A DNA stretch of 64,000 nt, taken from the IMG/VR virus record IMGVR_UViG_3300006117_000001, positions 1,559 through 65,558 of that record. One strand, written 5' to 3'. A program made the position numbers and the translations under genes. How positions within the stretch are numbered: the first letter of the stretch is position 1; every line of letters begins with the position of its first letter. Positions 5,215-50,054 of this stretch are shown here, piece by piece. The notes under the pieces were generated by a model. That model made no database searches. It worked only from the letters and a program-made list of their open reading frames with translations, and had not been told where the DNA came from. This DNA is from a virus. Its lineage: Duplodnaviria; Caudoviricetes.

Positions 5215-5247
5215 ACTAATACGCTAAATCAAGCGTTTACGCCCTAA
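5215..5247 (-). promoter_or_regulatory. Putative phage late promoter TTAGGGCG-N15-GCGTATTAGT
   Basis: One of five exact bipartite copies with a 15-nt spacer. Confidence 0.75.
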
Positions 5248-20132: not shown

Positions 20133-20165
20133 ACTAATACGCAACGGGCAAAAAATCCGCCCTAA
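20133..20165 (-). promoter_or_regulatory. Putative phage late promoter TTAGGGCG-N15-GCGTATTAGT
   Basis: Exact bipartite motif. Confidence 0.75.
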
Positions 20166-24590: not shown

Positions 24591-24623
24591 ACTAATACGC
24601 TAGCAGAAGAAAATCCGCCCTAA
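24591..24623 (-). promoter_or_regulatory. Putative phage late promoter TTAGGGCG-N15-GCGTATTAGT
   Basis: Exact bipartite motif. Confidence 0.75.
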
Positions 24624-27732: not shown

Positions 27733-27765
27733 ACTAATACGCTAAAAAGGGATATTCCGCCCTAA
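27733..27765 (-). promoter_or_regulatory. Putative phage late promoter TTAGGGCG-N15-GCGTATTAGT
   Basis: Exact bipartite motif upstream of the portal gene. Confidence 0.75.
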
Positions 27766-29218: not shown

Positions 29219-30180
29219 GGAATAAATCCTTCCCCGACTAAAATTGTGTTGTCTTCGCCATCTGTTTCGATGTGAACACAGTTTTGTGGTTCAATTTCAT
29301 AAATTTCCCGAACTAGTCTCCAAGTTTGTCTAACCTTAATAGGTTCGGGGGTTTGTTCTTGCGTTAATTGTAACTTAGTTTTGATAAACAACGTGTAATA
29401 CTTTTTTGTTCTGTCGTATAACATTTTAGTTTTGCAACCCAAAGACTCAGCTAGGTTTTGAACTTGGGTGACGCTGTGTTTAGTCTTCCAAGTAAACCTA
29501 AAAATTTGGTTTTTCTTATTAAACTGCTTGGCTTTACTATGCAAAATCCCACTTAGCAGTTCTTGACGCTGCTCTGGATCAGAAAACAAATAGTTATTGG
29601 GTATTTTTGTTGGAACCAAAGGGATTAAATGTGAAACTACTGTGGGCGTTGTGGTAAACGCCGCTTTTTTATTGGGGATATACCCATGGCTTTTAAACTT
29701 TTCCCTTACAAATTCATCAAAAATTACAGGCGGTTTCAAAGTCCCGTCTTTTTTGCGATTAAAAAACCAAAATCCAAAAATGAAAGGAGGTACTGGTAAG
29801 GTCTGATGGGGAAATTGAATGGCCCCCGTAGTGGGCACCGAGTACACCATGCGATTGTTTCGGTGGGTGAGGGGCGAGTTTACCAATTCTGAGATTGGTG
29901 TGGGTCGTAATGGTCTTCTAAATTTCCTAACTCCCTTGTATTGCCGAACCCTTGCTCGGTATTTTGGAGTTTCTAATGGAAGCTTTAAATGTATATCACC
30001 CGCTACGGTAAGGTGGTCGTGAAACTGCACCTCGTAACAATTTTTGGCTCGGTATTGTTGAGCCAATTTAACTTTAACTGGTTTTCCAGTTCTATCAAAA
30101 ACTATGTCTCCTGCACGAACATCGCAAGCTAGTTTCCAATAATCAAGGGTTAATACCTTCTCTGTTGCCAAAATTGCCAT
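29209..30180 (-). CDS. Free-standing intein-like protein (Hint plus degenerate LAGLIDADG)
   Basis: Hint N-block (GDIVFDRTGKPVKV), PVPPFIFGFW, IPNNYL...R.ELLSGIL, SLG, C-block LVGEGFIPCL-stop; no exteins, no terminal HN. Confidence 0.7.
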   Translation of the reverse strand: MAILATEKVLTLDYWKLACDVRAGDIVFDRTGKPVKVKLAQQYRAKNCYEVQFHDHLTVAGDIHLKLPLETPKYRARVRQYKGVRKFRRPLRPTPISELVNSPLTHRNNRMVYSVPTTGAIQFPHQTLPVPPFIFGFWFFNRKKDGTLKPPVIFDEFVREKFKSHGYIPNKKAAFTTTPTVVSHLIPLVPTKIPNNYLFSDPEQRQELLSGILHSKAKQFNKKNQIFRFTWKTKHSVTQVQNLAESLGCKTKMLYDRTKKYYTLFIKTKLQLTQEQTPEPIKVRQTWRLVREIYEIEPQNCVHIETDGEDNTILVGEGFIPCL

Positions 30181-30457: not shown

Positions 30458-30467
30458 ACTAATACGC
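30458..30467 (-). promoter_or_regulatory. -10-only phage promoter GCGTATTAGT
   Basis: Exact decamer without upstream TTAGGGCG. Confidence 0.6.
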
Positions 30468-30492
30468 ACAATTTTTCAAAAAAAAAAATTTT

Positions 30493-30805
30493 TGCCACAC
30501 TTTGCCACACTTCTGCCACACTTTAAATCGCATTTTTGGGCAAAGTGTGGCAGTAAAAAACCAGTTTAAAATCAAAAGGTTACAAGCGTTTTGCTTAAAA
30601 ATTAAGCACAAATTGCCACACTTTGTTTCGTTTTTTCCAAGTCGATACTCTACTATTCTTTTTTCTTTTTTAAAAAATAAAAATAAAAATAGAAAATAAG
30701 TGTGGAAGTGTGGCAATTAGGGGTTAAGTCTTTGATATATAAGGCTTATTGCATTGCAGCAAAGTGTGGAAGAAGTGTGGCAGAAGTGTGGCAATTGCCA
30801 CACTT
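30493..30805. repeat. Origin-like element copy 1 (TGCCACACTT iterons, AT-rich core, two IHF sites)
   Basis: About 11 iterons in both orientations; A/T core at ~30655-30700; WATCAANNNNTTR at 30570-30582 (+) and 30725-30737 (-). Confidence 0.75.
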
Positions 30806-32126: not shown

Positions 32127-34863
32127 TGTTTATTGTCTTTTATCGTTATCGCGGCGAAGAGTTAAACGCGACATTTAAAACAATACGCAAGGCGAAGCAA
32201 TTCGCCAGGGTTACCGGCGGCAAAATTGAAAGCCGCCTAACTAGTCATATTTGGGGGGTTTAATTATGAGTACATTGCACAAGATCGCTGCCATTCAATT
32301 AAATAGTAAGCGGCCGCCGTCTCATGCGCTTATTATGAGAATGGCCGGGGTTTACCTGGCAGCCGGGCATAAGGCCATGGATATATCTTGGCGCGGCCAG
32401 TCAATAGAATTAACTTATCATGACGCGCGCGGCCAATGGTACGGCCAGGGCATTATTAATAATGAGTACGGCGACAATATTGCAGATGAATTAAACCATA
32501 TTAAACAATTTGTCCTAGATCATTTTCAGATTGTCACTATGGGGGCAAACCATGCTTAAAATTTTATTGTCATACATTGTGGATCTATTAGGGTATATCC
32601 TAATTGCGCTCATATGGTGCGGCGTTATTCTTGCACTATTCGATTGTTTATAGGAGGTTTGATTATGTACTATTGCAACGGGCATTATTTTGACCAGTAC
32701 CAAGAGGCGCGCCGGTATGCTGATTTTCTGTTACGTCATGCCGGCATATATCGCGCTATTTTTACCCGCGCTGAAATAGAGGCGCATAATTTAGAGGGAG
32801 CATTATTATGACTAGATCTATCCAATCAATAGCCGCTCAGGCGCGGCGCGAGGCGCTCAGCGCCGGCTTACCATGCGGCCAATATACCTATTCTGATCCG
32901 CTCAAGATCGAAAATAGATATCAGAGCGAAGGCGGAGCAATACGCGAGCAATATGGATCTATTGCCAATTGGAATGCATGGGAGCGCGTACATGTAAGAG
33001 AGCGCGCAACAGGCCGAACTGTATTTGATAACGAAGTGGCCAAGATTACCGGCATGACATTACACGCAACACCGGCCGAGGTATTGGCCGTTTTAGATCA
33101 ATCTATTTATGAGGTGAAAGCATGATTACATTAGACGAAATGCATATTATTGAAGGCGATACAACGGCCACAACCCAGCAATATTATGAGGCCATACAGA
33201 AAGCTATTAATACTGGTTTATGGGGTATGCAGGGATCATACGGCCGTACAATGATGGCCGCGATTAACGAGGGTTATTGCATGCTCGGTCAAAATGACGC
33301 GCGCGACTATTGGGGTAATTATATACCATCACGCGACCAGGTACAGGCCGGTACAAAGGGATCATTCGATTTTGTTGCGAAGCAATGCGGCGAAGGATGG
33401 GCAGAATATATGAGCGAGGTGAAATAATGAACGCAGATAAAATTAAAGCAATGGTATCGGATCTTAATTATCAGTACTCTAATTTAGTGGAGGCCTCAGT
33501 AGAAGAGGCTTTAGATGAGCGGCCTAATTATGAATGCGACACCATGTTTGCAGAAATTCAAACATTAGTTAAATTGATATATAAAGAATTGGAGGCATGA
33601 TGAAAACTAATTATTCACATTTAGAAATTGCAATAGAGTGCGCATGGCAAATTGGAGATTCCCTTAAAAATTTACCGCGCGCTGAAAGCCGGTGGCTAGT
33701 GGCCGACATTACCAATCGCATTATTGAGGACGGCCTTATTACACCGGAGAGCGAAGATATAGACGAATTAATTGCAGCATGGATTGAGACTAATCTTAAG
33801 GAGACAGTATGATGACTAGGTTAGACGCATTTTGGATTTTATTGGCATTACTTATTACAACGCAGCTAGTATGGTATTTCACTAAATAGGGAGAATAGCA
33901 TGAGAAAATTTAGCAGACAGACAATTGACTTAATGGGAGCATATGCCAGTGGTTATTCATACGGACGTGCTGGCCTGGAATTAAACCAATTATGGGACGA
34001 AGACGAAGAAGGGCATATGTGGGAAGTACTAGGGCATAGCTATGGCATAGAGGATCTTAAAATGTTTGGAAAACTAGAGGGAAAAGTATATGACGCACAC
34101 CATTAAATTTAACTCAATCCATGAGATGCTATTGTGGATTGTTGAAAACAATATTTATGATGTACCTGTAGATCTAACCTTAAAATTAGGAGAATGAACC
34201 ATGCTGCAAGAAATCACTATGCGTCAAATTGACGATTACTTTCAAAAATCAGGTATTAGTGACATTGACGAACTAGGAGCAGTAGATCGTCAGATCAAAG
34301 ACCTAGAAGCTATCAAGGCCAAGTTAAAAGCTAGGATACTATCTAGAGGTACAGGCTTTCACAAGGGCTCAGAATTTATTGCGGAGGTTCAGGAATACGA
34401 TAGAGCAACGATTAGTCCTATCTTGGTTAAAGAGTTTGGTACTACTGATTTTGTGCAGCAAGTAACTCAGGTGCAACATATTAAAGCAGTATTGGTAAAA
34501 CGAATTGACTAATTATCGCTATGCCGTAGTAGATGAGTTTGGTGGGGTAATGCGTAAGTTTGCTAGTAAGATCGAGGCGCAGCCCTACTTAACCCATGGT
34601 ACTAAGCTTATTGCTTTACCTAAGCAACCAAAAACGCAGCCGTATGAAATAGTAGTGCTTACTTTACCCGAGGCCTTAATATGAAATTGATTGGTGGATT
34701 GATTTGTTTTTTAGCGATGTACGGATTTAGTGTACAGGTTACCTTAACTGGTATACTATGGATGTTGTTTGGTATAGTTTTAATTACCATTCCGGCAGTA
34801 TTGGAAGGTTTTATGCGCACTGAACGATTCATTCATAGGAGCAATAAAAGGAATGTCAAGTAA
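32126..34863 (+). other. Cluster of small, tightly coupled early ORFs
   Basis: ORFs at 32126, 32266, 32808, 33122, 33597, 33900, 34201 and 34681 among others, many with GGAG/GAGG RBS; functions unknown. Confidence 0.6.
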
Positions 34864-35422
34864 CGATTTTTTAACAGACTATCTCAAATCCCTCTATGGC
34901 ATACCAGTTCTTGACTCTAAAGACGAGTACCTTTTAGCACAACGTATCGCACAAGGCGATGATGAAGCACTAGAAACCCTAGTTCGCCATAATCTGCGCT
35001 TTGTGGTCTTTACTGTTCGCAAACTGACTGCCTGGAATCATTCTCGAGTACCACAAGAAGATCTGATTGGAATGGGCAACGTTGCATTACTCAAGGCCGC
35101 ATCACAATGGCAACCAACGAACGGAGCGAAGTTCGCAACGTACGCAAAAGGTTTTATATTGCGTGGTATTGAGCGCGGCCTAGATAATACCGAAAACCTG
35201 ATCCGTATTCCAATAAAAACGAGAGAAGAAATTCGCAAGATGACTTATACTGAAAGAGCACTTACTCAAGCTTTAGGAAGAGTGCCAACAGTAAACGAAT
35301 TGGCCTCGCTGCTAGGCAAAACGACTAAGAGAATAAACCAGCTTAAGTTCTTTTTGCACCAAGAGCCGACCAGTTTAGACGCAATGCAGTTAGACAAAAT
35401 GGAAGAGAACGAGGATGATTGA
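34853..35422 (+). CDS. Sigma70-family factor with regions 1.2, 2 and 3 only
   Basis: YLKSL..IPVL...E..LA (1.2), HNLRFVV / DLI..GN.ALLKAA / KFATYA (2), IRIP...LGRVPT..ELA...SLD (3), then stop. Confidence 0.85.
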   Translation: MSSNDFLTDYLKSLYGIPVLDSKDEYLLAQRIAQGDDEALETLVRHNLRFVVFTVRKLTAWNHSRVPQEDLIGMGNVALLKAASQWQPTNGAKFATYAKGFILRGIERGLDNTENLIRIPIKTREEIRKMTYTERALTQALGRVPTVNELASLLGKTTKRINQLKFFLHQEPTSLDAMQLDKMEENEDD

Positions 35423-35738
35423 TTTAACCGATGAGCAGAAAAAAGCATATCAAAGATTCATTATTGCAAGAGATCGGGTTCGTATTGGTTCGTACGGCAA
35501 AGGTAAAAAGGGAGAGCGAATTCCCCAATCTGACGTAGTGTGTACTGTAGATTTGGCAGGGATGAACCACCCAGTATTTGAACAAAATGATGAATGGCTA
35601 GAATACAAGGCAGCATCATTGGCCTGGTGGGCAATTGAGCCAGATTTTAGAAAGACAGAACGGATGAGTATGATCCGAGGCGATTATGACGACTCAGACC
35701 AATGGAAAGACAAACAGACCGGTGTTAAGGAGATATAG
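35415..35738 (+). CDS. Hypothetical protein
   Basis: 107 aa ORF coupled to the sigma gene. Confidence 0.55.
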   Translation: MIDLTDEQKKAYQRFIIARDRVRIGSYGKGKKGERIPQSDVVCTVDLAGMNHPVFEQNDEWLEYKAASLAWWAIEPDFRKTERMSMIRGDYDDSDQWKDKQTGVKEI

Positions 35739-36335
35739 ATGCGTGTATTAGTAGCGTGTGAATTTAGTGGTACTGTGCGCGATGCTTTTATTAAGGCTGG
35801 GCACGATGCCATGAGCTGTGATTTAGAGCCAACAGATCAGCCAGGGCCTCATTACCAAGGTGATGTATTTGATATTATTGATGATGGGTGGGATTTGATG
35901 ATTGCGCACCCACCATGCACCCACCTTGCCGTATCTGGTGCGGCCCATTTTGCCAAGAAACGAGCAGATGGGAGGCAGCAGCAAGGTATTGATTTTTTTA
36001 TGGCGCTTGCTAACTGCAACATACCAAAATATGCTATTGAAAACCCAATTGGGATTATGAGTAGTAATTGGCGCAAACCAAATCAAATCATACAACCTTG
36101 GCAGTACGGCCACCGCACTACTAAAGCAACCTGTCTTTGGTTAAAAAATTTGCCTTTACTTCAACCCACTAATATTGTAGATAAAGGGGAAGTATGGGTG
36201 GCTAAAAGCGGAAAAAGAATGTCTAAATGGTTTTATGAATCATCTTGCTTGCCGCCGAGAGAGAGAGAGAGAATGCGTAACAAAACATTTCAAGGCATAG
36301 CAGACGCTATGGCAGATCAATGGGGAAAATTATGA
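35739..36335 (+). CDS. Short DNA cytosine-C5 methyltransferase-like protein
   Basis: VLVACEFSG, HPPC (motif IV), IENP (VI), KTFQGIA.AMA.QWG end. Confidence 0.75.
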   Translation: MRVLVACEFSGTVRDAFIKAGHDAMSCDLEPTDQPGPHYQGDVFDIIDDGWDLMIAHPPCTHLAVSGAAHFAKKRADGRQQQGIDFFMALANCNIPKYAIENPIGIMSSNWRKPNQIIQPWQYGHRTTKATCLWLKNLPLLQPTNIVDKGEVWVAKSGKRMSKWFYESSCLPPRERERMRNKTFQGIADAMADQWGKL

Positions 36336-36532
36336 AAAGAGTGGTTCCAACCGATGTATATGACAAAGACGGCAATATGACCAAGATTGAGGTGACTGAT
36401 ACCTCAGGTAACCACATAGCCGATTTTTTGTGGGATGAACGTGATGAGCAGACCAGTGAGAATAGAGTTAAGTTCCGAGAGTGGTGCTATGACTTTTTGC
36501 AGCGCAACAAGCAATTTGAGGTGGCAAGGTAA
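36320..36532 (+). CDS. Hypothetical protein
   Basis: ~66-70 aa ORF ending at the origin-like repeat. Confidence 0.5.
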   Translation: MGKIMKRVVPTDVYDKDGNMTKIEVTDTSGNHIADFLWDERDEQTSENRVKFREWCYDFLQRNKQFEVAR

Positions 36533-36533
36533 C

Positions 36534-36849
36534 TGCCACACTTTGCCACACTTCTGCCACACTTTAAACCGCATTTTTGGGCAAAGTGTGGCAGTGACAA
36601 AAAGCTTTTAGAATCAAAGAGTTACAGAGGTTTTTTGGTCATTTTGGGTCGAAATTGCCACACTTCCAGTGAAAAAACGCAAGTCGCTATGCCACTCTAT
36701 CTTTTTATTTTTTTTTATTTTTAAAACTAAAATAAGAAAAGAGTGTGGAAGGTGTGGCAATAGTACCCTAAGTGCTTGATATATAAGGATTATTGCACTG
36801 CAGCAAAGTGTGGCAGAAGTGTGGCAGAAGTGTGGCAATTGCCACACTT
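36534..36849. repeat. Origin-like element copy 2
   Basis: Same iteron order as copy 1; IHF consensus at 36612-36624 (+) and 36769-36781 (-); directly upstream of the primase-helicase. Confidence 0.8.
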
Positions 36850-36947
36850 GTAGGACAAATACCTACAAGCCGCTAAAAGTATCTTGTAATATGAAATTGG
36901 TGTATTACCGAACTGCGTATCAGTTCAGGTAAGCAAAGAGGAAGAAG

Positions 36948-39272
36948 ATGTTAGAAAAACCAGCAGCACTACCAGTTAGTTTTGAGAATATCCCGGTAGA
37001 TCTAAAGATGATCCCCAGGTTCTGCCTATGGAAATACACCCTTGTTGGTGAGGGAGACACACAGAAATGGTCTAAACTACCAGTCCAGCCTAGTGGTAAA
37101 GCAGCAAAATCAACCGATCCAGCAACCTGGACAGACTTTTTTACAGCCCAAAAGGCCTATGAGAATGGCAACTTCTCAGGCATAGGCTTTGTCTTTACTG
37201 GCGATGATGACCTCATTGGCGTAGACATTGACGATTGCAGAGACCCTATTAGCGGAGATCTGAATGAGCTAGCTACCAACATCATAGCCAACGTCAAGGG
37301 ATATTGCGAAATCAGTCCCTCAGGTACTGGTGTCAAGATATTTACCAGAGCAAACCTGCAAAATGCCCACGTAGACCACGAAATTGGGTTAGAAGTCTAC
37401 GCAAAATCTCGGTATTTTACCCTCACAGGCCATAAAATAGGCGGTGATCTGCCCAGTGAGCCACAAGACCTCACTGCCCATGTGCCCGCCCGCACACTTA
37501 TCCGTACAAGTTCAGATGATGAGTTTGCTAACTACACACCGCCAGTTGAAGGTTGGGATCTAGCTCGCGTTGACAATGAGCTTTTAAGCCAATTAGACCC
37601 CTCTTGTGGCTACGATGACTGGCTAGCTGTGGGGATGGCCTTATCGCACCAATTTGGAGGCGATATAGAGGCTCTGGAGGCTTGGGATAGCTGGTCTTGT
37701 GAGCATGGGCAGAACCCAAAATACGTAGCTAGCGGAATGAACTCTTGCGCTGCAAAATGGCGCACATTTAAAGGCGGAGGCACCACACTGCGCTCACTGA
37801 TCTTCAAGGTGAATCAAAAAAAGCTCAAAGCTGCCCTTGATGCTGGTGAAATTGTGCTCGACATCTCCAATCCACTAGATCATGCCCGCAAATTTCTACA
37901 ATCCTTGTATGCGATTGAGGGTGGCTTTAAATTAGTACACCATGCCCAAGAGTTTTTTGTCTACACTGGGACACATTACAGCTTTATTGAAGAGGCCACA
38001 GTGCGCTCCCAGGTGTATAAGTTTTTGGATCGCTGCCAAAAACAAGACAAAAAGGGCAATTTAGTCCCATTTAACGCAAATCCTGCGGTGGTTAATGCCG
38101 TAATCGACGCATTAAAGTCGATTGTCCACCTTGCTAATGACCCCAACGGAAGGCCACCAGTTTGGCTAGATGGGTATGCTCAAAACAACCCGCCTGCCAA
38201 CCAGCTTATCAGTATGACTAATGGATTGTTTCAGATGGATCAGTTGGTGCTTTATCCGCACTCACTAGGCTTTTTTACTTACAACTCTCTGCCATTTGAA
38301 TACGACCCACAGGCACAGTGTCCTCACTGGCTCGCTTTCTTAGATGATGTGTGGGGTAATGACATCGAGTCTAAAGAGTTGCTGCAAGAGTATTTTGGAT
38401 ACATTTTGTCCGGCGATACAGCCCAGCAGAAATTTTTGAACGTGATTGGTCCGCGTCGTAGCGGCAAGGGCACTATCAACAAAGTGCTCACCGAACTGCT
38501 TGGTCAGCACAATGTGGTCTCGCCTCAGATGGAAGAGCTTTGCGACACGTTTGGTTTGCAACCTTGGATAGGCAAACAGCTAGCATCATTTACAGATGCG
38601 CGGGTAACAACCAAGAATGGCGCTGGTGTTGTGTCTCAGTTGTTACGCATTGTGGGTGGCGACACAGTGACAGTAAACCGCAAGAACAAAGAGGCTTGGA
38701 GTGGTTACCTACCAACCAGGATCATTGTGTACTCCAATGAGATGTTGCGGCTATCAGAAAACAGTAATGCACTCACAGGCAGGATGTTGGTGCTCACCAT
38801 GACAAACAGCTTTTATGGCAAAGAGGACGTTGGCCTTGCAGACCGCCTGATTGCTGAACTAGCTGGCATTTTTAACTGGGCGTTGCAAGGACATAGCCGC
38901 CGCACCAGTAGAGTGGGTCAGCGTTTTGTGCAGCCAGAGTCTAGCAAGAGCATGGTAGAAGAGATGACTAAGCTGTCTAATCCATTGGCAGAGTTTATTG
39001 AAGACGCCGTTGAGTTTGTAGAGGATCATGAAGTCAATAAGGACGATGTGTTTGCTTGTTATAAACATTGGGCGATTAAAAAGAATCTACACCCTGGCAC
39101 AGAGATGTCCTTTAAAACCCGCTTTACTTCTACAACGCAAGAGTTTAAAGTAAAGACTAACCGCAGACGTACTGCCAATGGATCAGAGTGGACTTATGTG
39201 GGAATTAGGCTCAAAGATAAAGCGCAGGCCTTTGTGGATTCAATCAGTGAGTTTGAGCGTGAAATCTTTTAA
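36948..39272 (+). CDS. Primase-polymerase / PriCT-2 / D5-type SF3 helicase
   Basis: GVDIDDC and EISPSGTG prim-pol motifs; YDDWLAVGMAL; Walker A GPRRSGKGT. Confidence 0.88.
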   Translation: MLEKPAALPVSFENIPVDLKMIPRFCLWKYTLVGEGDTQKWSKLPVQPSGKAAKSTDPATWTDFFTAQKAYENGNFSGIGFVFTGDDDLIGVDIDDCRDPISGDLNELATNIIANVKGYCEISPSGTGVKIFTRANLQNAHVDHEIGLEVYAKSRYFTLTGHKIGGDLPSEPQDLTAHVPARTLIRTSSDDEFANYTPPVEGWDLARVDNELLSQLDPSCGYDDWLAVGMALSHQFGGDIEALEAWDSWSCEHGQNPKYVASGMNSCAAKWRTFKGGGTTLRSLIFKVNQKKLKAALDAGEIVLDISNPLDHARKFLQSLYAIEGGFKLVHHAQEFFVYTGTHYSFIEEATVRSQVYKFLDRCQKQDKKGNLVPFNANPAVVNAVIDALKSIVHLANDPNGRPPVWLDGYAQNNPPANQLISMTNGLFQMDQLVLYPHSLGFFTYNSLPFEYDPQAQCPHWLAFLDDVWGNDIESKELLQEYFGYILSGDTAQQKFLNVIGPRRSGKGTINKVLTELLGQHNVVSPQMEELCDTFGLQPWIGKQLASFTDARVTTKNGAGVVSQLLRIVGGDTVTVNRKNKEAWSGYLPTRIIVYSNEMLRLSENSNALTGRMLVLTMTNSFYGKEDVGLADRLIAELAGIFNWALQGHSRRTSRVGQRFVQPESSKSMVEEMTKLSNPLAEFIEDAVEFVEDHEVNKDDVFACYKHWAIKKNLHPGTEMSFKTRFTSTTQEFKVKTNRRRTANGSEWTYVGIRLKDKAQAFVDSISEFEREIF

Positions 39273-42103
39273 CTTTCGTAAACGCATCAAGCGCAACCAC
39301 TTTACTGTTGTTTTTAAGACAGTAGGTAAGCGCAAAGTTATTATACAAAACGAAAAGTGTATAATAACTTTTCGTTTTAAAATGCAAAAGATCAGAAGAG
39401 CGCATCAAGGTCATCGCAATAAGGTATTTGGTAGTCTTACCCAATTGAGAATGAGACGCATTTACGGAATTAGGCCGACAGTACCGCAGTTAAGGAGATA
39501 GTATGGAGTACAAAGACTTAGCAATAAATGGGTTTACATTTAGGTTTATTAAAGAAGATAATGAGTGGGTGTGCAAGATGCCAACGTGGTTGATTACTGC
39601 CGCAGAGGATATGCTTAGTGCAAATTACAAGAGAGAACAACGGCTGCAACAGCTATTAGATGAGGACAGAGAATGACTAACGAGAACCAAAAGCCAGTGA
39701 CCGATGATTATCGCAACAACTGGGAACAAGTGTTTAAGAAGAGCAACACAACCAAAACAACTGAGCTTGAAGACTACCAAAAACTCGCACAAGAGATTTG
39801 GTTCAAGGACGGCTCATGCACAGGAGGAAAAGCAGAATGAACAATGAACCAGTAGCGTGGATGGATAAAGAAAGCAATATCACCATGATTGGTGGTATTT
39901 ACCCAAAAAAGCTAGAGCAATATTTAAGCGTATTAGAATCTAGGATTATTGCTTTGGAATCCCATCCAGCAAAGACACTAACAGATGAGGAAATAGAGCA
40001 AGTGTGGACTGAGGTAACTTGTCAAGAGCTAAATGTTCCGTACAGTTTTGCTAGAGCAATACTAAGAAAGGCAAGCGAGAAATGAACGCACATGAACTAG
40101 CAGACCTTATTGATACTGGGATATTCCCAGAAGGTACATTGGCCCTTGCCACCAAAATGTTACGCAATCAGGCCAAGGAGATCGAGAGCCTACAGGAGCA
40201 CTTTGACAAGGCGCTGGACTTTCTGACACGCCTTAACACTGGAGGCAAACAGTAATGCTCACTGTCAAGCAGTACTTAGAGATATTTAAGTTCTCAAGCG
40301 TTGACAATCTAAAAAACATCAAGCGCGTGTTGTTTATGTCACATAGCACCGAGGACTTAAAGAACCGGTACGACGCAGTAAAGATTGCGCTAGGTGAAGA
40401 ATGAGCCACGACTACCAAGACATCGAGCAGATCGTCGCATACCTGAACAAGCAAAGTGACGGCGTGGCAAACGTCTACGCCAAGACGGCGAGCATGTTAG
40501 ACTCGTTGTCAAAGGATAGGGCGCGTCTTGAGCAAAGAGTGGTAGACTTGGAGGAGCGTATCAGCAACATGGAGCAGTGGGAGAGGCGCTACCTTGACGT
40601 GATAGAATCACTAAGCCAAGACAGCAAGGCGGCGCTTAAGGAGTCACTTCGCACTTATGACGGGAGACTAGAATGAACGCAAATGAACTAGCTGATGAGC
40701 TGGAAAAATGTATTAGAGATGGTTCAACAGATTTAGTATGCGTTGACCAAGCAGCCACCATGCTACGCCAGCAACAAGCTGAAATAGAGGCATTAAACCA
40801 GCGCATTGAGCGCATGATTGAGAACCAAAGTCATCACGAAGGTATTGCACACGCTGGTGGGTTTGAACAAGGCCATGAGGTAGGACGTCAACTTGGCATG
40901 AAGCAAGAGCGAGCAATGTGGGAACTAGCCGCATCGACACAGGAGATAATGAAATGACTACATTTACCACACAAGACCGGCAAGATGCAGAGCGCACCCC
41001 GCTGAGCGACCAAGAGTTACTTAAAATGGCAGCAGATAAGTTTCATTACACCGAGTACAAACTAGCAATCGAGTTCGCCCGCGCCATTGAACGAGCCCAT
41101 GGAATTGGTGATACGTATCACCAGATGGAGGACTAATGAGCTTCACCATCTACCAACACAACGGACTCAAAGTCATCCAGTGGTTTGCCACAGTTGATGA
41201 GCTGATTGCCAGCATGCTGGCCAACCCTAACGACGCATACCATAGGAATGTATGAAAACCAAAATATATGTATGGTGGATTAAACTACAAGCAAACCACA
41301 TACCTTGGACTAAGCTGTACAAGTACCGAGTGCGTGAGTGGGAAAGTATGAAAGAGACCAATAGAATTCTTAATGGCTTTTGGTTTGGTGACCACAAAAA
41401 CAATTTAGAACAAAAAACAGATTGGGATACTATAAAAGAAATGGTGAAAAATCACAATGACTGAGATCGCCCTATCATTCTTCATCGGCTTTTTGGTTGG
41501 CCTTGTGATGCGTCCAAAAAATAAAGACATCAAAGAGCAAACTGACATCTATAATCGCAAGTACCAAGAGTACGAGACTGAAATTAAGTACTACAAAGAC
41601 CTGTGCAAATGGCACGTAGAGCAAAAGGAAAAGAAATGACTGACGACATCCAGTTTACTATGACATTTGAGAGTAACAACGACGATGGTTCAGCAAACTA
41701 CAAGCTTGACCTAAATGAGTACACTACCAGTAAGTTAGTGGAGATTGGTGTGATTGCGTTACTTAAAGAGCACATTGCCCAAGAGCAAGCTAAAAGAGGC
41801 AACATTTACATTAGAGCAAAAATCTTAATAGGAAAGATCATGGACAAATTAAAAGTAATCAAGCCTGCAATTAAAGAAAAGTCTGGTAAGGTAGTGCCAG
41901 CAAAATCAATCAAAGAAAACCACGATGACATTATCAAGCGCGAAGGTAAAGCAGCTAAGGGAGCTAAGCGTGAGTTTGTGCTGTCAGACAAAACCGTAGC
42001 TACTCGCACCAAAGCAGCCAAGGTAGCAAAGGCAGCCGGTGAGGTAAAGAACCCAGGCAAAAAACTACACAGCCATGAACTACGTAAGGCACTCAAAAAA
42101 TAA
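39244..42103 (+). other. Cluster of small accessory ORFs
   Basis: Many coupled short ORFs (e.g. 39837, 40082, 40401, 40673, 40954, 41252, 41457, 41637). Confidence 0.55.
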
Positions 42104-42693
42104 TGAAAAAGCGCCCATATTACATTGCCGACACCGGCTTTTTTGGAGCCAAAGTGTTTATTTGCTTTTCTGATATGTCGTTTCAGCAAGCACTTAAAGA
42201 CAGCAAAATAACAACTCGCCATAATGCTTTAGATTTAGGCATTGCTGAGTCACATTTTATTCAGCAAGAAGGCACCCACAACAGTATGCTAGCGATTGCG
42301 TTTAACTATGATGAGATGGCAAAAACCGACGCGTTAGAACGGATGGGTACTATCTATCATGAGGTCTCGCACACAGTCACTCATATTTTTGAGTACATTG
42401 GTGAAGACGACGCTAAGATTGGTGACGAGGCTCGCTCCTATCTTGGAGAGCATGTATTTAAGCAAGTATTTTCAGCCTACGCAACGGAGGAAGACAGACG
42501 TGAGCGTCTTAGAAAAAGAAATAGAGAAGCACTTATTAACCTCAGTAGTAAAAGCGGGGGGACGCAGCTTCAAGTGGATATCAACAGTGACGGGAGTGCC
42601 GGATCGGATAGTGTTCCTAAACCAAAACGTGTATCTCGTAGAACTAAAGACGCAAACCGGGAAACTGAGCAAGAGACAAGAACTGGTTTTTGA
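42103..42693 (+). CDS. HExxH metallopeptidase-like protein
   Basis: TIYHEVSH...DEARSYL; 3' part overlaps VRR-NUC. Confidence 0.5.
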   Translation: MKKRPYYIADTGFFGAKVFICFSDMSFQQALKDSKITTRHNALDLGIAESHFIQQEGTHNSMLAIAFNYDEMAKTDALERMGTIYHEVSHTVTHIFEYIGEDDAKIGDEARSYLGEHVFKQVFSAYATEEDRRERLRKRNREALINLSSKSGGTQLQVDINSDGSAGSDSVPKPKRVSRRTKDANRETEQETRTGF

Positions 42694-42787
42694 TGATCTG
42701 GGTGAGCAGGGCTTTCCTGTTCACGTTCTACGCAGCAAAGAAGACGTTGAGGATTTTGTAAATGGCACGACAAAAGCTGAGTGTTAA
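42500..42787 (+). CDS. VRR-NUC nuclease
   Basis: LEKEIE...GVPDRIV...VELK...GKLS..Q; GTG start with GGAGG RBS. Confidence 0.85.
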   Translation: MSVLEKEIEKHLLTSVVKAGGRSFKWISTVTGVPDRIVFLNQNVYLVELKTQTGKLSKRQELVFDDLGEQGFPVHVLRSKEDVEDFVNGTTKAEC

Positions 42788-43127
42788 AGATAAGCATATT
42801 GGTAGAGCATTTGAGTGGGCAAAAAGAAGAGCTAGAGTAAAAAATATTCCATTCACAATAACGAGGGAATATTTACGAGCCATTGCTGCAGATGAATGCC
42901 CAATATTTGAAACGCATTTTGAGTGGGGGCACTCTGGCCTTGGTGTCGGCAAATCCAAACCAGATGGGCCACAGTTAGATCGAATTGTCCCTGAACTAGG
43001 ATACGTTGAAGGCAACGTGGCCTTTATTTCACACAGGGCAAACCGCATTAAAAGCGAAGGTACCATGCAAGAACATTACGCTATAGCAGATTGGATTTGG
43101 AACAGCACCCATGTTAGCAAGAAGTAA
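42762..43127 (+). CDS. HNH-like endonuclease
   Basis: CPIF...LDRIVPELGYVEGNV.FIS.RAN.IK. Confidence 0.7.
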   Translation: MARQKLSVKDKHIGRAFEWAKRRARVKNIPFTITREYLRAIAADECPIFETHFEWGHSGLGVGKSKPDGPQLDRIVPELGYVEGNVAFISHRANRIKSEGTMQEHYAIADWIWNSTHVSKK

Positions 43128-44454
43128 CCTTCACCAATATCAAACCGACCTTATTGAGAAAGCAAAATCATGCCAAAACATGGGATTATTCCTGCCACCT
43201 GGACTTGGAAAGACGACCACGACGTTGACGATTATTGCCGAGCAGTTCAAGGGGAAAACGCTTATCGTAGCGCCAAAGAGGGTAGCGGAAACAGTATGGC
43301 AACAAGAAACGCAGAAGTGGAGCCACCTAACCCACTTACGCGTATCGAAGATCATGGGCAATCCGACGCAGAGATTGTCCGCCTTGAATTCGGACGCAGA
43401 TATCTATCTGATAAACCTTGAGAATGTAGTTTGGCTCACCGACGCCCAGCCTAAGTTAGTGTTCACTAACTTAGTAATAGATGAGAGTAGTCGGTTTAAA
43501 GACCCATCAACTAAGCGTTTTAAGGCACTTAAGAAGCATTTAAAGGGCTTTTCTAGGCGTTTAATTCTCACTGGCACACCTACCCCTCAAGGTATGGGTG
43601 ATCTCTGGTCTCAGGTGGGCATATTGGACTTAGGAGAGCGTTTGGAGACTAGCTTGACCCGCTTTAGGGACAAGTACATGATGCCAGACCAAATGAACAG
43701 GCATACACGTGTGGTATATAGCTGGAAGTTAAAGGAAAATGCAGATCAGAGTATTAAAAATAAAATTGCAGATATTTGTTTTAGTCTTAAAGCTGAGGAT
43801 TACCTACAGCTACCGGCTCTTACAACGCTTTATCACCAAGTTGAAATAGATAAAAACGTAAGGAAACAATATGAGCAACTTAGAAAAGAGATGGTTGTGG
43901 ACATCCAAAAAGAACGGATCACAGCTCCAACCGCAGCAACACTGGCGAACAAACTGCTCCAGTTCACATCGGGAGCGATCTACAATGAAGACGGAGAGAC
44001 TCAAGAAATACACCGTTCTAAGTTGGAATATCTTGAGTCGGTCATGGAAGAGACCTCCTCCCCAGCGCTTGTCTTCTATCACTTCAAGCACAGTTTGCAA
44101 AGGATTAGGCAAACTTTCCCGTACGCCATGGTCCTGGACGATGACAACATTGAGGCGTGGCGTCGTGGCAAGATTCGTATGCTACTCGCACACCCACAAT
44201 CAGGGGGCATCGGGCTTAATCTCCAGTGCAACGTTGGAGAGACAGCACAAACCGTGTGGTATGACTTACCGTGGAGCTCAGAAAACTACATCCAAGCCAA
44301 TGCTCGGGTTTACCGCCAAGGGCAAACGGTGCCGGTTATCTTACACCATTTGGTAGTGTCAAAAAGTATTGACGAGCAAGTTGTCAAAGTATTAGAGGGC
44401 AAAATAAATTTACAGCAAGCGTTATTAGATGCCCTAAATTGCGTATTAGTGTGA
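43111..44454 (+). CDS. SNF2-family helicase
   Basis: GLGKT, IDES, LTGTP, GIGLNLQ, QANARVYRQGQ. Confidence 0.9.
   Translation: MLARSNLHQYQTDLIEKAKSCQNMGLFLPPGLGKTTTTLTIIAEQFKGKTLIVAPKRVAETVWQQETQKWSHLTHLRVSKIMGNPTQRLSALNSDADIYLINLENVVWLTDAQPKLVFTNLVIDESSRFKDPSTKRFKALKKHLKGFSRRLILTGTPTPQGMGDLWSQVGILDLGERLETSLTRFRDKYMMPDQMNRHTRVVYSWKLKENADQSIKNKIADICFSLKAEDYLQLPALTTLYHQVEIDKNVRKQYEQLRKEMVVDIQKERITAPTAATLANKLLQFTSGAIYNEDGETQEIHRSKLEYLESVMEETSSPALVFYHFKHSLQRIRQTFPYAMVLDDDNIEAWRRGKIRMLLAHPQSGGIGLNLQCNVGETAQTVWYDLPWSSENYIQANARVYRQGQTVPVILHHLVVSKSIDEQVVKVLEGKINLQQALLDALNCVLV
44441..44450 (+). promoter_or_regulatory. -10-only phage promoter GCGTATTAGT
   Basis: Exact decamer; ATG at 44457, 6 nt downstream. 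Confidence 0.6.
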
Positions 44455-44456
44455 CC

Positions 44457-44762
44457 ATGAAAGCAAAAAATATAATAAAAGCTGCAACACCCAGATTATC
44501 AGATGAAGAGCTAGATCCACTAGAGCAAGACGACAACGACGGCACTTCTGTGGATATGATGGAGGCATACTTTCCATGGAATCCAGAGGACATTGCAGAC
44601 ATTAGAAGATTGATAGATGAGCAGATGCCCAAGAAACAACGCTTTATATTTCAAGCATTTTTGGAAGGTTTGACGCACGAAGATATTATGGTAACTGAAA
44701 AGTACTGGCGGTATCACTTTTCAAAAGGTGTAGATTTTATTAAAGAGGAGCTTGGCCTATGA
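44457..44762 (+). CDS. Sigma region-4-like small protein
   Basis: Acidic linker then IRRLIDEQMPKKQRFIFQAFLEGLTHEDI...YHFSKGVDFIK, resembling sigma4. Confidence 0.55.
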   Translation: MKAKNIIKAATPRLSDEELDPLEQDDNDGTSVDMMEAYFPWNPEDIADIRRLIDEQMPKKQRFIFQAFLEGLTHEDIMVTEKYWRYHFSKGVDFIKEELGL

Positions 44763-45226
44763 GCCACTTTAAAGACTTGTTTGATTATAAAGATGGAAAA
44801 CTATTTAGGAAAACAAAAGTTGCAGGAAATGTAAAAATTGGTGAAGAAGCTGGTTGGTTTGATAACAAAGGATACCGAAAAGTTTCCATTAACAAAAAAA
44901 CATACGGTGTCCATCAAATAATATTTGAAATGCACCATGGGTATATTCCTGAAATGGTAGACCACAGAGACGGAAACCCAAGCAACAATGACATTAATAA
45001 TTTACGTGCGGCAACAAGGGGACAAAATATTAGTAACCAAAAAGCCAGAGGAAAATCCAAAATTAAAAATGTTTATTGGGCTCCAAGACAAAAAAGTTGG
45101 CGTGTAAATATGCGCATAAATGGTAAAAATACACATATTGGCTACTTTAAAGATTTAGAACTGGCTGAACTTGTTGCCGTTGAATCAAGAGAAAAATATC
45201 ATAAGGAGTTTGCTAACCATGTCTAA
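44759..45226 (+). CDS. HNH endonuclease with AP2-like C-terminus
   Basis: VDHRDGNPSNN.INNLR.AT..QN; KNVYW...W...IGYF. Confidence 0.85.
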   Translation: MSHFKDLFDYKDGKLFRKTKVAGNVKIGEEAGWFDNKGYRKVSINKKTYGVHQIIFEMHHGYIPEMVDHRDGNPSNNDINNLRAATRGQNISNQKARGKSKIKNVYWAPRQKSWRVNMRINGKNTHIGYFKDLELAELVAVESREKYHKEFANHV

Positions 45227-45627: not shown

Positions 45628-46564
45628 TTTTAGAAATTGATGATGATATGGTTGACACCATTATTCAAAGTGCATTGGTTAAAGACTATGTCCATTTAAC
45701 AGCTGACCTAAAAGCTTACAAGAAAAACCCCAATCATTTGCACGAAGATGACGCAGCAGCTTATGCTGAAGTAGTTAAGGGTATTGAAATTTTGGCTCGC
45801 TGGTATTTTTGCAATGGTGAATTTGAAAAGTCTGTCAAACTTGCTAGGAAGAAAAAATGAAAAAATATACAGCAGGCGATTTAGAACAAGCCATCATGCA
45901 GTGCTGGCAAACCAGCGATGATTTAGAGTTGTTCTTTCGATACCATGGCGACGCGCCAACACCAATGACAGAAGATGAAGTGTCTAATGGATTGTTGGGT
46001 ATTAAATTACTAAATGACATGCGTATTTGGAATGCGCAAGACATACACTGCAGAGTGTTTGAACTAAATCAGTACTGCACTGATCCAGAAAAGTTAACAA
46101 CAAGAGAAGCATTATTCCCCGATTTTCCAATTAAAAAGAAAGGTAGTAAAAAATGAGCGAAGAAAAAGTAATTGACAGTGGTTTAGACAACGAGATTTTG
46201 ACATTCCGTTTTTCTGTAAAAGCAACTAATGGTTTGCTACAGATTTTAGGAAACGCACCCTTTGTCGCATCCGCTGGCTATATCCAAGATTTGCAAACCC
46301 AAGCTGGTCCGCAAATTGAAACATTGGTAGCGAAACAAAATGAATCTGAAACAGCTTCTTAAGCGAGCAGGTGTAAGCAATAACATCATAGCTGAGGTTG
46401 AGCGTAAGGCCAAAATGACCACAGCACAGCAGGAAATTGAGCATCAAGAAAAGGCTGCTGCAATGGCCAAAATGATGCTCAATGATGTTATGCCGCATCT
46501 GCACAGCGCAATGAGTAAAACACCCCCGTCTAAACCCAAAAAGACAATTATCATTCCAGATTAG
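45615..46564 (+). other. Four small hypothetical ORFs (45615, 45857, 46153, 46340)
   Basis: Coupled 69-99 aa ORFs. Confidence 0.5.
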
Positions 46565-46593
46565 GGCGGTTTTTCCCCAAAAAGCGTATTAGT
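46561..46593 (+). promoter_or_regulatory. Putative phage late promoter TTAGGGCG-N15-GCGTATTAGT
   Basis: Exact bipartite motif, the only plus-strand copy seen. Confidence 0.75.
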
Positions 46594-47969: not shown

Positions 47970-48054
47970 TACTAATCAACGGGGAATAGGCTTAGCGGCC
48001 GTGCCAGTGCTCATTCACTGGCTACCCACCAAACAACCAATGAGGGTTATATCA

Positions 48055-50044: not shown

Positions 50045-50054
50045 GCGTATTAGT
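50045..50054 (+). promoter_or_regulatory. -10-only phage promoter GCGTATTAGT
   Basis: Exact decamer in the intergenic region upstream of SSB. Confidence 0.6.

What the first reader, a model, noticed from the sequence alone, without database searches (positions are those of the whole stretch)
34853..44762. Apparent split sigma factor (sigma1.2-2-3 plus a separate sigma4-like gene) forming a two-step transcription cascade
Seen: the 189-aa sigma70 ORF stops just after the region-3 SLD motif and has no region 4. Nine kb away, ORF 44457-44762 encodes an acidic linker and a region-4-like segment (MPKKQRFIFQAFLEGLTHEDI). That gene sits 6 nt behind a GCGTATTAGT site that lacks the upstream box. Known: sigma2/3 reads -10 elements and sigma4 reads -35 elements; T4 gp55/gp33 splits these roles, but gp33 is not a sequence-specific -35 reader. 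Inference: the truncated sigma alone fires the -10-only (middle) promoters, including the one for sigma4, and the two proteins together then fire the TTAGGGCG-containing late promoters.
Basis: partly seen in the sequence, partly recalled or inferred. Interest (0 to 1): 0.88.

Follow-up and report, generated by a model that had tools for sequence, protein, structure and literature searches.

The report
Two-piece phage sigma factor
This freshwater phage, like its many relatives, encodes a sigma factor that lacks its promoter -35-reading domain and, 9 kb away, a small protein predicted to fold like that missing domain, so the two probably work together to switch the host RNA polymerase from replication genes to virion genes.

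Summary
ORF 34853-35422 is a sigma factor with regions 1.2, 2 and 3 that stops inside region 3.2. All 46 complete homologues in related loci and all 120 listed database relatives are equally short. ORF 44457-44762 folds confidently over residues 41-101. The 25 best of 48,161 solved chains are all sigma region 4 (Z 6.4-8.8). Sequence evidence is weak: Pfam Sigma70_r4_2 is below threshold and the profile-profile probability is 3%. The two genes co-occur wherever flanks allow a judgement, and in distant clades too; no relative has a fused or full-length form.

The decamer GCGTATTAGT marks 8 promoters. Five carry TTAGGGCG exactly 15 nt upstream and drive virion genes. Three lack the box and drive replication genes, the sigma4-like gene and terL. 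A relative with 49% sigma identity has a changed downstream element but the same box at the same distance.

A split sigma is the best reading (about 0.55). The timing cascade is inference. The main rival is a GerE-like activator.

This is a new variant of a known kind (SigO-RsoA, Tn916 Sig7-8, T4 gp55/gp33, SPO1 gp34). This scan has met the same family on other DNA.

The parts
34853..35422 (+). Sigma factor N-terminal piece: regions 1.2, 2, 3 and the start of 3.2, ending in an acidic tail; no region 4
   Evidence: Pfam r1_2/r2/r3 above cut-off; PHROG 351; nearest NCBIfam models are RpoS/RpoD, covering only about the first 64% of each; the same end in 46 of 46 complete homologues
35415..35738 (+). 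Conserved 107-aa ORF overlapping the sigma stop codon; function unknown, possible third component
   Evidence: Adjacent to sigma in 46 of 46 loci and in distant G008 (52% identity); no Pfam, NCBIfam or significant PHROG hit; AF2 pLDDT 75, best fold match only Z 4.8
44457..44762 (+). Stand-alone sigma region-4-like protein (101 aa): disordered acidic N-terminal half with conserved PRLSDEE.DP.E motif, then a three-helix region-4-like domain (res 41-101) with near-invariant TEKYWRYHF helix
   Evidence: AF2 pLDDT 88-98 over res 41-101; VIA-align top 25 of 48,161 chains are all sigma region 4, Z 6.4-8.8; Sigma70_r4_2 hit in 11 of 26 family members, best E 2e-4
44441..44450 (+). Box-less promoter decamer GCGTATTAGT, 6 nt before the sigma4-like ATG (likely leaderless transcript); overlaps the last codons of the helicase gene
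   Evidence: the same arrangement in 37 of 57 unique relatives
36915..36924 (+). One-mismatch decamer GCGTATCAGT upstream of the primase gene (36948); box-less
   Evidence: at the equivalent place relatives have an exact decamer with a TTTCACAnnGTGAAA palindrome upstream
50045..50054 (+). Box-less promoter decamer before the SSB, ribonucleotide reductase and DNA polymerase genes
30458..30467 (-). Box-less promoter decamer, ATG 6 nt downstream; heads the small ORF, Hint-like ORF and terL operon
46561..46593 (+). Bipartite promoter TTAGGGCG-N15-GCGTATTAGT before the terS-like, endonuclease VII and exonuclease genes
27733..27765 (-). Bipartite promoter before the portal gene
24591..24623 (-). Bipartite promoter before the head genes (major head/protease-like ORF 20714-21631 downstream); ATG 6 nt after the decamer
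20133..20165 (-). Bipartite promoter before the tail-region genes (883-aa tail protein downstream)
5215..5247 (-). Bipartite promoter before the distal virion and fibre genes

Best explanation
The phage makes a sigma factor in two separately encoded pieces. The 189-aa piece (regions 1.2-3.2) binds host core RNA polymerase and reads the downstream element GCGTATTAGT, an extended -10-like site (inferred). On its own it should suffice at promoters that lack an upstream box, as E. coli sigma70 without region 4 does at extended -10 promoters (established knowledge, recalled). Those promoters drive the replication genes and the 101-aa sigma4-like gene. The 101-aa protein then sits on the polymerase where region 4 normally sits and reads the TTAGGGCG box 15 nt upstream of the decamer, which turns on the virion genes (inferred). 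Shown here: domain content, fold, conservation, co-occurrence, and the two promoter classes with their gene sets. Inferred: polymerase binding, box recognition, and the order in time.
For: The truncation is a family trait: 46 of 46 complete homologues end at the same acidic tail (30 distinct sequences); 120 of 120 listed database relatives are 171-207 aa with r1.2/r2/r3 domains only; no fused form was found at 332 aa or more. The sigma4-like model is confident over res 41-101. Its 25 best matches among 48,161 chains are all sigma region 4, including sigmaE region 4 on -35 DNA (Z 8.3); LuxR/NarL-type domains follow at Z 5-6.4. The Foldseek top hits are also sigma4, with rmsd about 2 A over 56-62 residues. 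A control model of the neighbouring 107-aa ORF reached only Z 4.8 against unrelated folds. Sigma70_r4_2 is the only recurrent Pfam family, in 11 of 26 members. The piece missing from sigma, judged against full-length relatives, is about 100 aa, the size of the small protein. Co-occurrence is 8 of 8 and 11 of 11 where flanks allow. In records with distant sigma4-like genes, 14 of 22 have a region-2 gene, 13 of them in frames of 191-211 aa and one in a 131-aa frame cut by the contig end, including 2 of 2 complete genomes; 0 of 22 have a region 4 above cut-off. In 1.84 billion representatives the family has 33 relatives and none is part of a full sigma. All 5 boxes lie exactly 15 nt from a decamer. 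In relatives 60 of 190 contexts carry a GGGCG/GGGGC box, 57 of them starting 20-21 nt upstream of the decamer. In G008 (sigma 49% identical) the downstream element has become TGCATAAGTAG while the box and its distance are kept in 6 of 9 sites, and the sigma4-like helix stays TEKHWRYH. Box-less promoters precede primase, helicase, SSB, RNR and DNA polymerase; box promoters precede portal, head, tail and fibre genes. The sigma4-like gene's nearest promoter is box-less in 49 of 57 contexts and never has the box.
Against: Sequence homology to region 4 is not significant: Pfam 14.8 bits against a cut-off of 25.7; hhalign against the C-termini of three full-length phage sigmas gives probability 3.3%, E 0.013; profile searches of PDB sequences gave no sigma, and the best relevant hit was GerE at E 0.18. 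Foldseek E-values are all above 0.1, and Z about 8 is within what small helical domains can reach by chance according to the tool's own note. The first helix of the helix-turn-helix is about 7 residues shorter than canonical and is modelled as a loop. The terL operon is box-less although packaging is usually late. The terS/endoVII/exonuclease group has the box. Nothing shows binding to RNA polymerase or DNA, and the host is unknown. 8 of 22 distant records show no sigma; 7 of these are fragments of 7-24 kb and one is a 40-kb record estimated 63% complete. Many loci come from the same contigs or close relatives, so the counts are not independent.
Confidence: 0.55

Rival explanations
1. ORF 44457 is a free-standing GerE/LuxR-type DNA-binding activator. 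It binds the GGGCG box as an ordinary transcription factor and recruits polymerase carrying the truncated sigma by protein contact, without occupying the region-4 site on the beta flap.
For: The best PDB sequence match of the family profile is GerE (E 0.18), with a plausible alignment of the recognition helix (TEKyWrYH against SEKTVRNH). LuxR/NarL/FixJ domains appear in the fold list at Z 5-6.4. GerE is itself a small stand-alone protein acting at late sigmaK promoters (recalled). Region 4 and LuxR-type domains share a fold, so fold alone cannot separate them.
Against: Sigma4 chains fill ranks 1-25 and LuxR-type chains come after them. Pfam r4_2 is hit by 11 of 26 members, and GerE is not among the families returned at E up to 1. 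The model has an extra N-terminal helix like region 4.1 and ends right after the recognition helix, with no C-terminal dimerisation helix. The box is asymmetric and at one fixed distance from the -10-like element, as for a monomeric -35 reader. The family strictly accompanies a sigma that lacks region 4.
Confidence: 0.2
2. ORF 44457 is a region-4 mimic used for host take-over. It occupies the beta flap, or binds host sigma, to shut off host -35-dependent promoters, while the GGGCG box is read by another phage protein such as the 107-aa ORF coupled to sigma.
For: Phage partners of region-4-less sigmas are known to be flap or polymerase binders without DNA specificity: T4 gp33 (passages of PMC12867686) and SPO1 Gp33, described as an inhibitor contacting beta, beta' and sigmaA region 4 (passages of PMC13401047). 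The shortened helix-turn-helix could mean lost DNA binding. The 107-aa ORF is as strictly linked to sigma as the sigma4-like gene is.
Against: The putative recognition helix is the most conserved part of the protein (W84, R85, Y86, H87, F88 invariant in 44 sequences) and stays nearly constant together with the box across clades. The 107-aa ORF has no DNA-binding fold match.
Confidence: 0.12
3. The small protein has nothing to do with sigma: its fold match and genomic co-occurrence only reflect a shared phage backbone.
For: All relatives found belong to one syntenic phage lineage, so co-occurrence could be inherited linkage. Sequence statistics are weak.
Against: The complementarity of domains and size, the box at the -35 position, the lack of any other region 4 in two complete distant genomes and in the window's own genome, and the homogeneous sigma4 fold list.
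Confidence: 0.08

Closest known systems
B. subtilis SigO-RsoA and Tn916 Sig7-Sig8 two-subunit sigma factors
   Same: Promoter -10 and -35 reading domains lie on two polypeptides that together direct core polymerase (passages of PMC7826278; passages of bioRxiv 10.64898/2026.10.01.756105).
   Different: Those are ECF-like (regions 2 and 4 only), cellular or ICE-borne, and, as I recall, encoded by adjacent genes. Here the large piece is RpoD/RpoS-like with regions 1.2, 2 and 3, the break is in region 3.2, the genes lie 9 kb apart in different transcription units, and there are promoters with and without the -35-like box. Homology to RsoA/SigO was not tested.
T4 gp55 with gp33 (and the gp45 clamp)
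   Same: A phage sigma lacking region 4 plus a small acidic partner; late promoters depend on both (passages of PMC12867686).
   Different: T4 late promoters have no -35 consensus (same passages). From recall, gp55 is essentially region 2 only and gp33 is not a sequence-specific DNA binder. Here sigma keeps regions 1.2 and 3, the partner has a region-4 fold, and the late promoters have a strong fixed-distance upstream box. No PHROG match for ORF 44457. Clamp dependence was not examined.
SPO1 Gp34 (late sigma) with Gp33
   Same: Similar sizes (Gp33 constructs span residues up to 101; Gp34 size recalled). Gp34 is described as lacking the region-4 domain entirely. Both are made from middle promoters and are needed for late genes (passages of PMC13401047; passages of the Tn916 preprint).
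   Different: That paper describes Gp33 as an RNAP-binding inhibitor contacting beta, beta' and sigmaA region 4, not as a region-4 domain. tblastn of ORF 44457 found no match in 50,697 phage records. I did not fetch or fold the SPO1 proteins.
Other candidate split phage sigmas noted by this scan (Mx1-like and jumbo phages)
   Same: An RpoD-like phage sigma lacking its -35 reader plus a small helix-turn-helix protein (AI notes).
   Different: Where those notes give a break point it lies inside domain 4, after region 4.1. Here all of domain 4 is separate and the break is in region 3.2. I did not check those notes.

Membership tests
Sigma-70 family (ORF 34853-35422) | Region 2 (core binding, -10 recognition) | tested here: met
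   PF04542 31.5 bits against cut-off 24; but the Trp pair of region 2.3 is GF in place of WW
Sigma-70 family (ORF 34853-35422) | Region 3 and region 1.2 (groups 1-3) | tested here: met
   PF04539 28.6 bits against 25.3; PF00140 23.5 bits against 22
Sigma-70 family (ORF 34853-35422) | Region 4 (-35 recognition, flap binding) | tested here: not met
   No r4 domain; the protein ends in region 3.2; the same in all relatives
Sigma region 4 domain (ORF 44457-44762) | Sequence match to Sigma70_r4 or r4_2 above the curated cut-off | tested here: not met
   14.8 bits against 25.7; 11 of 26 relatives hit it below cut-off; hhalign probability 3.3%
Sigma region 4 domain (ORF 44457-44762) | Region-4 fold (4.1 helices plus helix-turn-helix) | tested here: met
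   Top 25 VIA-align matches are all sigma region 4, Z 6.4-8.8, 52-74 residues aligned; the first HTH helix is shortened
Sigma region 4 domain (ORF 44457-44762) | Binds the beta-flap tip and reads a -35 element | not testable with these tools
   Host unknown; needs biochemistry
Two-subunit sigma factors (SigO-RsoA, Sig7-Sig8 type) | -10-reading and -35-reading domains on separate polypeptides | tested here: met
   Domain content and fold; no fused form found
Two-subunit sigma factors (SigO-RsoA, Sig7-Sig8 type) | Both subunits associate with RNA polymerase and both are needed at the target promoter | not testable with these tools
Two-subunit sigma factors (SigO-RsoA, Sig7-Sig8 type) | Homology to RsoA or SigO | not tested
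   Sequences were not fetched
T4 gp55/gp33 late system | Sigma reduced to region 2; promoters with -10 only; partner without DNA specificity | tested here: not met
   Regions 1.2 and 3 are present; 5 of 8 promoters have a fixed upstream box; the partner has a region-4-type HTH fold
LuxR/GerE-type HTH regulators (ORF 44457-44762) | Sequence match to the family | tested here: inconclusive
   GerE E 0.18 in the PDB sequence search; GerE is not among the Pfam families returned for 26 members at E up to 1
LuxR/GerE-type HTH regulators (ORF 44457-44762) | Helix after the recognition helix that mediates dimerisation; two-fold symmetric operators (features recalled) | tested here: not met
   The model ends 2 residues after the last helix, H81-99 of 101; the box TTAGGGCG is asymmetric and single

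The most novel reading that the evidence does not exclude
Region 4 has become a diffusible, separately timed specificity module. One sigma core piece gives two holoenzyme forms: alone at box-less promoters (replication genes and the module's own gene), and with the module at box-containing promoters (virion genes). The delay needed to accumulate a 101-aa protein would then be the phage's middle-to-late clock. The second, divergent sigma4-like paralogue found in the early region of one relative (L093) hints that such modules can be swapped or added to create further promoter classes.
Probability: 0.35. Interest if true: 0.8.

Novelty: new variant of a known kind. Interest (0 to 1): 0.62.

Why it matters
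Two-subunit sigma factors are known, but few have been studied. In the phage cases I found in print (T4, SPO1) the partner of the region-4-less sigma is not a region-4 domain. Here a whole region 4 appears to be supplied in trans from another transcription unit, in a widespread lineage of uncultivated phages found mainly in freshwater metagenomes. The promoter grammar is unusually clean: one decamer, with or without one box at one distance. That makes a long-standing question directly testable: how far region 4 must be tethered to the rest of sigma, and whether holding it back can serve as a developmental timer. It would also offer a compact two-input part for synthetic transcription control. 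My searches found no description of this arrangement, but they cover open-access text only.

Tried and rejected
1. Co-folding the 189-aa sigma (alignment A4) with the 101-aa protein (A1) gave no verdict (score 0.00 against a mark of 0.32). It is evidence neither way. The two pieces need not touch each other off the polymerase.

2. Expression evidence: no RNA holder was listed among 24 public runs, all of them DNA metagenome runs.

3. Sequence-profile routes to region 4 were not significant. These were hmmsearch of A1 and A2 against PDB sequences and hhalign of A2 against the C-termini of three full-length cyanophage sigmas.

4. The search for fused or full-length forms found none ('longer' search; 'near' search; exhaustive profile search). 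P0136 (229 aa) matches only through its N-terminal 60 residues and continues into unrelated sequence. P0153 (1376 aa) matches through seven short stretches. I did not follow up either.

5. The 107-aa ORF as a T4-gp33-like partner: no family hit and no fold match above Z 4.8. It remains unexplained.

6. Covariation of box and recognition helix could not be tested. The only locus with a clearly different helix (L114) is an 11.9-kb fragment without late genes. What was found is co-conservation (G008), which is weaker.

7. A 9-mer repeated about 90 times in G008 looked like a dispersed regulatory element. It is a glycine-rich coding tandem repeat.

8. The sigma70-type promoter scan of the early region was at chance level (14 found, 15.4 expected), so nothing can be said about how the sigma gene itself is transcribed.

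9. GenBank phages hold no relative of ORF 44457 and only distant sigma relatives (under 40% identity).

10. Supplementary files of papers were not opened. Those of PMC13401047 (Gp34 and Gp28 alignments) may bear on the SPO1 comparison.
Full report
WHAT IS THERE. The window is positions 1559-65558 of a complete 65,558-bp virus record with direct terminal repeats. Genes run leftward from about 30.4 kb and rightward from about 31 kb. ORF 34853-35422 (189 aa) matches Pfam Sigma70 regions 1.2, 2 and 3, each above its curated cut-off, and no region 4. It also matches the PHROG sigma family 351 at E 2e-28. Its nearest NCBIfam models are RpoS and RpoD, but it covers only about the first 64% of each, for example positions 12-182 of 285. 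Aligned with three full-length cyanophage sigmas of 299-358 aa, it stops about 14 residues after the conserved region-3.2 'SLD' in an acidic tail, where they continue for 85-97 aa through the linker and region 4. In the same alignment the Trp pair of region 2.3 is replaced: YAKGFILRG against YAYWWIRQS. The whole genome, in six frames, has one region-2 match and none to the two region-4 models.

THE TRUNCATION IS A TRAIT, NOT DAMAGE. In IMG/VR loci, all 46 complete homologues end at the same acidic tail, down to about 45-50% identity (47 found, one cut by a contig end). These make 30 distinct sequences, mostly 187-191 aa. In the 5.8-billion-protein collection, 180 relatives scored E 1e-8 or better. 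The 120 listed are 171-207 aa and carry only r1.2, r2 and r3 domains. A search restricted to proteins of 332 aa or more found none.

THE SMALL PROTEIN. ORF 44457-44762 (101 aa) has 305 relatives in IMG/VR (80 kept). An alignment of 44 members shows two invariant blocks: an N-terminal PRLSDE..D..E, and W84-R85-Y86-H87-F88 within 'TEKYWRYHF'. AlphaFold2 on this alignment gives mean pLDDT 78.6. The first 40 residues have low confidence, and residues 41-101 score 88-98 with helices 43-55, 59-69 and 81-99. Foldseek against the PDB gave no E-value below 0.1, yet nearly all top hits are sigma region 4 of ECF and group-3 sigmas, with rmsd about 2 A over 56-62 residues. VIA-align does not rely on Foldseek. 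It compared the model with 48,161 representative chains, and ranks 1-25 are all sigma region 4 (Z 8.8 to 6.4), among them E. coli sigmaE region 4 bound to its -35 DNA (Z 8.3, 61 residues). LuxR/NarL/FixJ-type domains follow at Z 5-6.4. The tool warns that Z near 8 can arise by chance for small helical domains. As an internal control, the neighbouring 107-aa ORF, folded the same way (pLDDT 75), reached only Z 4.8 against a mixture of unrelated folds.

Sequence statistics are weak. The window protein hits Sigma70_r4_2 at 14.8 bits against a cut-off of 25.7. In a broader alignment of 26 members, 11 hit that model (best E 2e-4), and it is the only family hit by more than two members. Profile searches of PDB sequences gave no sigma; the best relevant hit was GerE at E 0.18. 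hhalign against the C-termini of the three full-length sigmas gave probability 3.3%. The alignment was in register from region 4.1 to the recognition helix, with a 7-residue gap in the first helix of the helix-turn-helix.

DO THE TWO BELONG TOGETHER? The missing C-terminal piece of sigma is about 100 aa, and the small protein is 101 aa. In the near clade, 8 of 8 sigma4-like loci with more than 10.2 kb of upstream flank contain the sigma. Likewise 11 of 11 sigma loci with that much downstream flank contain the sigma4-like gene, 6.1-9.6 kb away. Several of these loci come from the same contigs.

An exhaustive HMMER search of 1.84 billion representatives with the family profile found 33 relatives. 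Of these, 31 are stand-alone proteins of 33-129 aa. One is a 229-aa protein matching only through its N-terminus, and one is a 1376-aa protein with seven short matched stretches. None is the C-terminus of a sigma.

Using distant members as queries, I obtained 31 further loci and searched 22 of the records behind them; the other nine were short fragments that I left out. Of the 22, 14 have a region-2 match. Thirteen of those lie in open frames of 191-211 aa and one in a 131-aa frame cut by the contig end. Both complete genomes are among the 14. Seven of the eight records without a match are fragments of 7-24 kb, and one is a 40-kb record estimated 63% complete. None of the 22 has a region-4 match above cut-off. 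The three weak r4_2 matches lie in 101-aa frames; the one I checked by coordinates lies inside the sigma4-like gene. An AT-rich fragment with the most divergent helix (L114) keeps the order sigma, small ORF, primase, helicase, sigma4-like. So the pairing of a region-4-less sigma with this small protein holds as far as the family can be traced.

PROMOTERS. GCGTATTAGT occurs 8 times exactly, always facing the genes. With one mismatch allowed there are 11 sites against 3.5 expected. TTAGGGCG occurs 5 times against 1.3 expected, and no shuffle of 100 reached 5. Each box lies exactly 15 nt upstream of a decamer. The box-containing sites are at 5215, 20133, 24591 and 27733 (minus strand) and 46584 (plus strand). 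The box-less sites are at 30458 (minus) and 44441 and 50045 (plus). A one-mismatch box-less site lies at 36915 before the primase gene.

In relatives I found 190 distinct contexts of the 9-mer GCGTATTAG, the window's own included. Sixty carry a GGGCG/GGGGC box, which starts 20-21 nt upstream of the decamer in 57 of them. Thirty-nine carry a TTTCACAnnGTGAAA palindrome instead. Ninety-one carry neither. My first, stricter classification undercounted the box.

In the complete distant genome G008, sigma is 49%, the sigma4-like protein 53% and the 107-aa ORF 52% identical to the window's. There the downstream element has become TGCATAAGTAG (9 sites). Six of the nine keep a GGGCG or GGGGC box at the same distance, which gives GGGCG-N18-yATwAG in both clades, and three have none. 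Its sigma4-like helix reads TEKHWRYH. So the box is co-conserved with the small protein's helix while the -10-like element changes with a diverged sigma. This is co-conservation, not compensatory covariation.

WHICH GENES. Box-less promoters precede the primase (36948), the SNF2-type helicase and the sigma4-like gene, and the Gp2.5-like SSB, ribonucleotide reductase and DNA polymerase. They also precede the small ORF, Hint-like ORF and terL operon. Box promoters precede the portal, a major head/protease-like gene, an 883-aa tail protein and fibre genes, and on the plus strand a terS-like gene, endonuclease VII and an exonuclease. The split into replication and virion genes is clean apart from terL.

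Across 57 distinct contexts of the sigma4-like gene, a box-less decamer sits immediately upstream in 37 and further upstream in 12. None was seen within the available flank in 8. A box-containing promoter is the nearest one in 0. In G008 the gene has no promoter of its own and overlaps the helicase stop codon, so it is read from the box-less replication operon. An ATG follows the decamer by 6 nt at 44457, 30451 and 24584, and in 53 of the 91 box-less contexts, which suggests leaderless transcripts.

MECHANISM, WITH ITS STATUS. Shown here: domain content, fold, conservation, linkage, and the promoter classes with their gene sets. Inferred: the 189-aa piece binds core and reads the decamer as an extended -10-like element through regions 2 and 3; this suffices at box-less promoters, by analogy with E. 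coli sigma70 lacking region 4 at extended -10 promoters (recalled, not checked here); and the 101-aa protein docks where region 4 docks and reads the box, adding the virion genes once it has accumulated. The conserved N-terminal PRLSDEE.DP.E motif is as well kept as the helix in distant members. It may be the tether to polymerase or to the sigma piece, but this is speculation. I put the split-sigma reading at about 0.55 and the timing cascade, taken alone, somewhat lower.

RIVALS. (i) A GerE/LuxR-type free-standing activator (0.2). It is favoured by the GerE sequence hit and the shared fold. It is disfavoured by the fold ranking, by the recurring Pfam hits to r4_2, by the region-4.1-like extra helix and the lack of a helix after the recognition helix, and by the asymmetric box at one fixed distance. 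(ii) A region-4 mimic for host shut-off, with the box read by something else (0.12). It is suggested by what is in print for T4 gp33 and SPO1 Gp33. It is disfavoured by the extreme conservation of the putative reading helix. (iii) No functional link (0.08).

COMPARISON WITH WHAT IS KNOWN. For each paper below I read the passages returned by term searches, not the whole text. A Tn916 preprint lists SPO1 Gp33/Gp34, T4 gp55/gp33, B. subtilis SigO-RsoA and Tn916 Sig7-Sig8 as two-subunit sigma factors. The ECF re-classification paper says SigO-RsoA carry the sigma2 and sigma4 domains on two polypeptides. A 2026 paper on SPO1 says Gp34 lacks the region-4 domain entirely, and describes Gp33 as an inhibitor that contacts beta, beta' and sigmaA region 4. 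A paper on phage Mu notes that T4 gp33/gp55 promoters have a -10 but no evident -35.

The present case works like a two-subunit sigma. It differs in four ways: the large piece is RpoD/RpoS-like and keeps regions 1.2 and 3; the break is in region 3.2; the two genes are unlinked and differently promoted; and the target promoters come with and without the box. Five literature searches found no description of such a phage arrangement, within open-access text only.

This scan has noted candidate split phage sigmas in at least 55 other genomes. In the eight notes listed, the break point, where stated, lies inside domain 4. The scan has also met this same family on other DNA: e1-6042820 has a follow-up report, and e1-6215897 and e1-6235659 are first-reader notes. 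These are AI notes that I did not verify, except for the Trp-pair remark, which holds in my own alignment.

VERDICT. This is a new variant of a known kind, clean enough to be tested directly. Interest 0.62.

Noticed in passing
window 35415-35738: A 107-aa ORF overlaps the sigma stop codon and follows sigma in 46 of 46 loci and in distant G008. It has no family hit and no fold match above Z 4.8. It is a strictly linked partner of unknown role.
   Followed up: partly
window 44457, 30451, 24584: An ATG lies exactly 6 nt after the decamer at three promoters, and in 53 of 91 box-less contexts in relatives, which suggests leaderless mRNAs that start at the A of the ATG.
   Followed up: partly
L093:9030-9269 (relative): One relative carries a second, divergent sigma4-like paralogue (helix FTEKKWRYNIGRAL, like database protein P0150) in the early region just upstream of sigma. 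The window has no paralogue.
   Followed up: partly
relatives, about 1 kb downstream of sigma (for example L087:2394); window 36915: In 39 contexts the decamer before the primase operon has a TTTCACAnnGTGAAA palindrome at about the -35 position. This is a third promoter class, perhaps an operator for a dimeric regulator. The window's equivalent site has a one-mismatch decamer and no clear palindrome.
   Followed up: no
window 34853-35422, around residues 97-104: The conserved Trp pair of sigma region 2.3 (YAYWWIRQ in full-length relatives) reads YAKGFILR here. This may relate to the unusual downstream element.
   Followed up: partly
window 29209-30180 and 27773-29218: The 322-aa ORF upstream of terL matches terminase-large-subunit PHROGs over its first 80-140 residues, while the 480-aa terL ORF matches mainly over its later part.
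   Followed up: no
window 30468-30512 and 36534-36849: GTGTGGCAAA-type repeats lie just upstream of the 30458 promoter.
   Followed up: no
window 42762-43127, 44759-45226, 48001-48471, 53164-53619: Four HNH or endonuclease VII-type genes are scattered through the replication region. One of them lies directly after the sigma4-like gene.
   Followed up: no
G008 (L163, L166): about 0.8-1.7 kb and 60-67.8 kb: About 90 copies of a 9/18-nt coding repeat on the minus strand encode a glycine-rich Gly-Ile-Ser-Gly-Tyr-type repeat, probably giant fibre-like protein(s), clustered in the two stretches next to the record's ends.
   Followed up: partly
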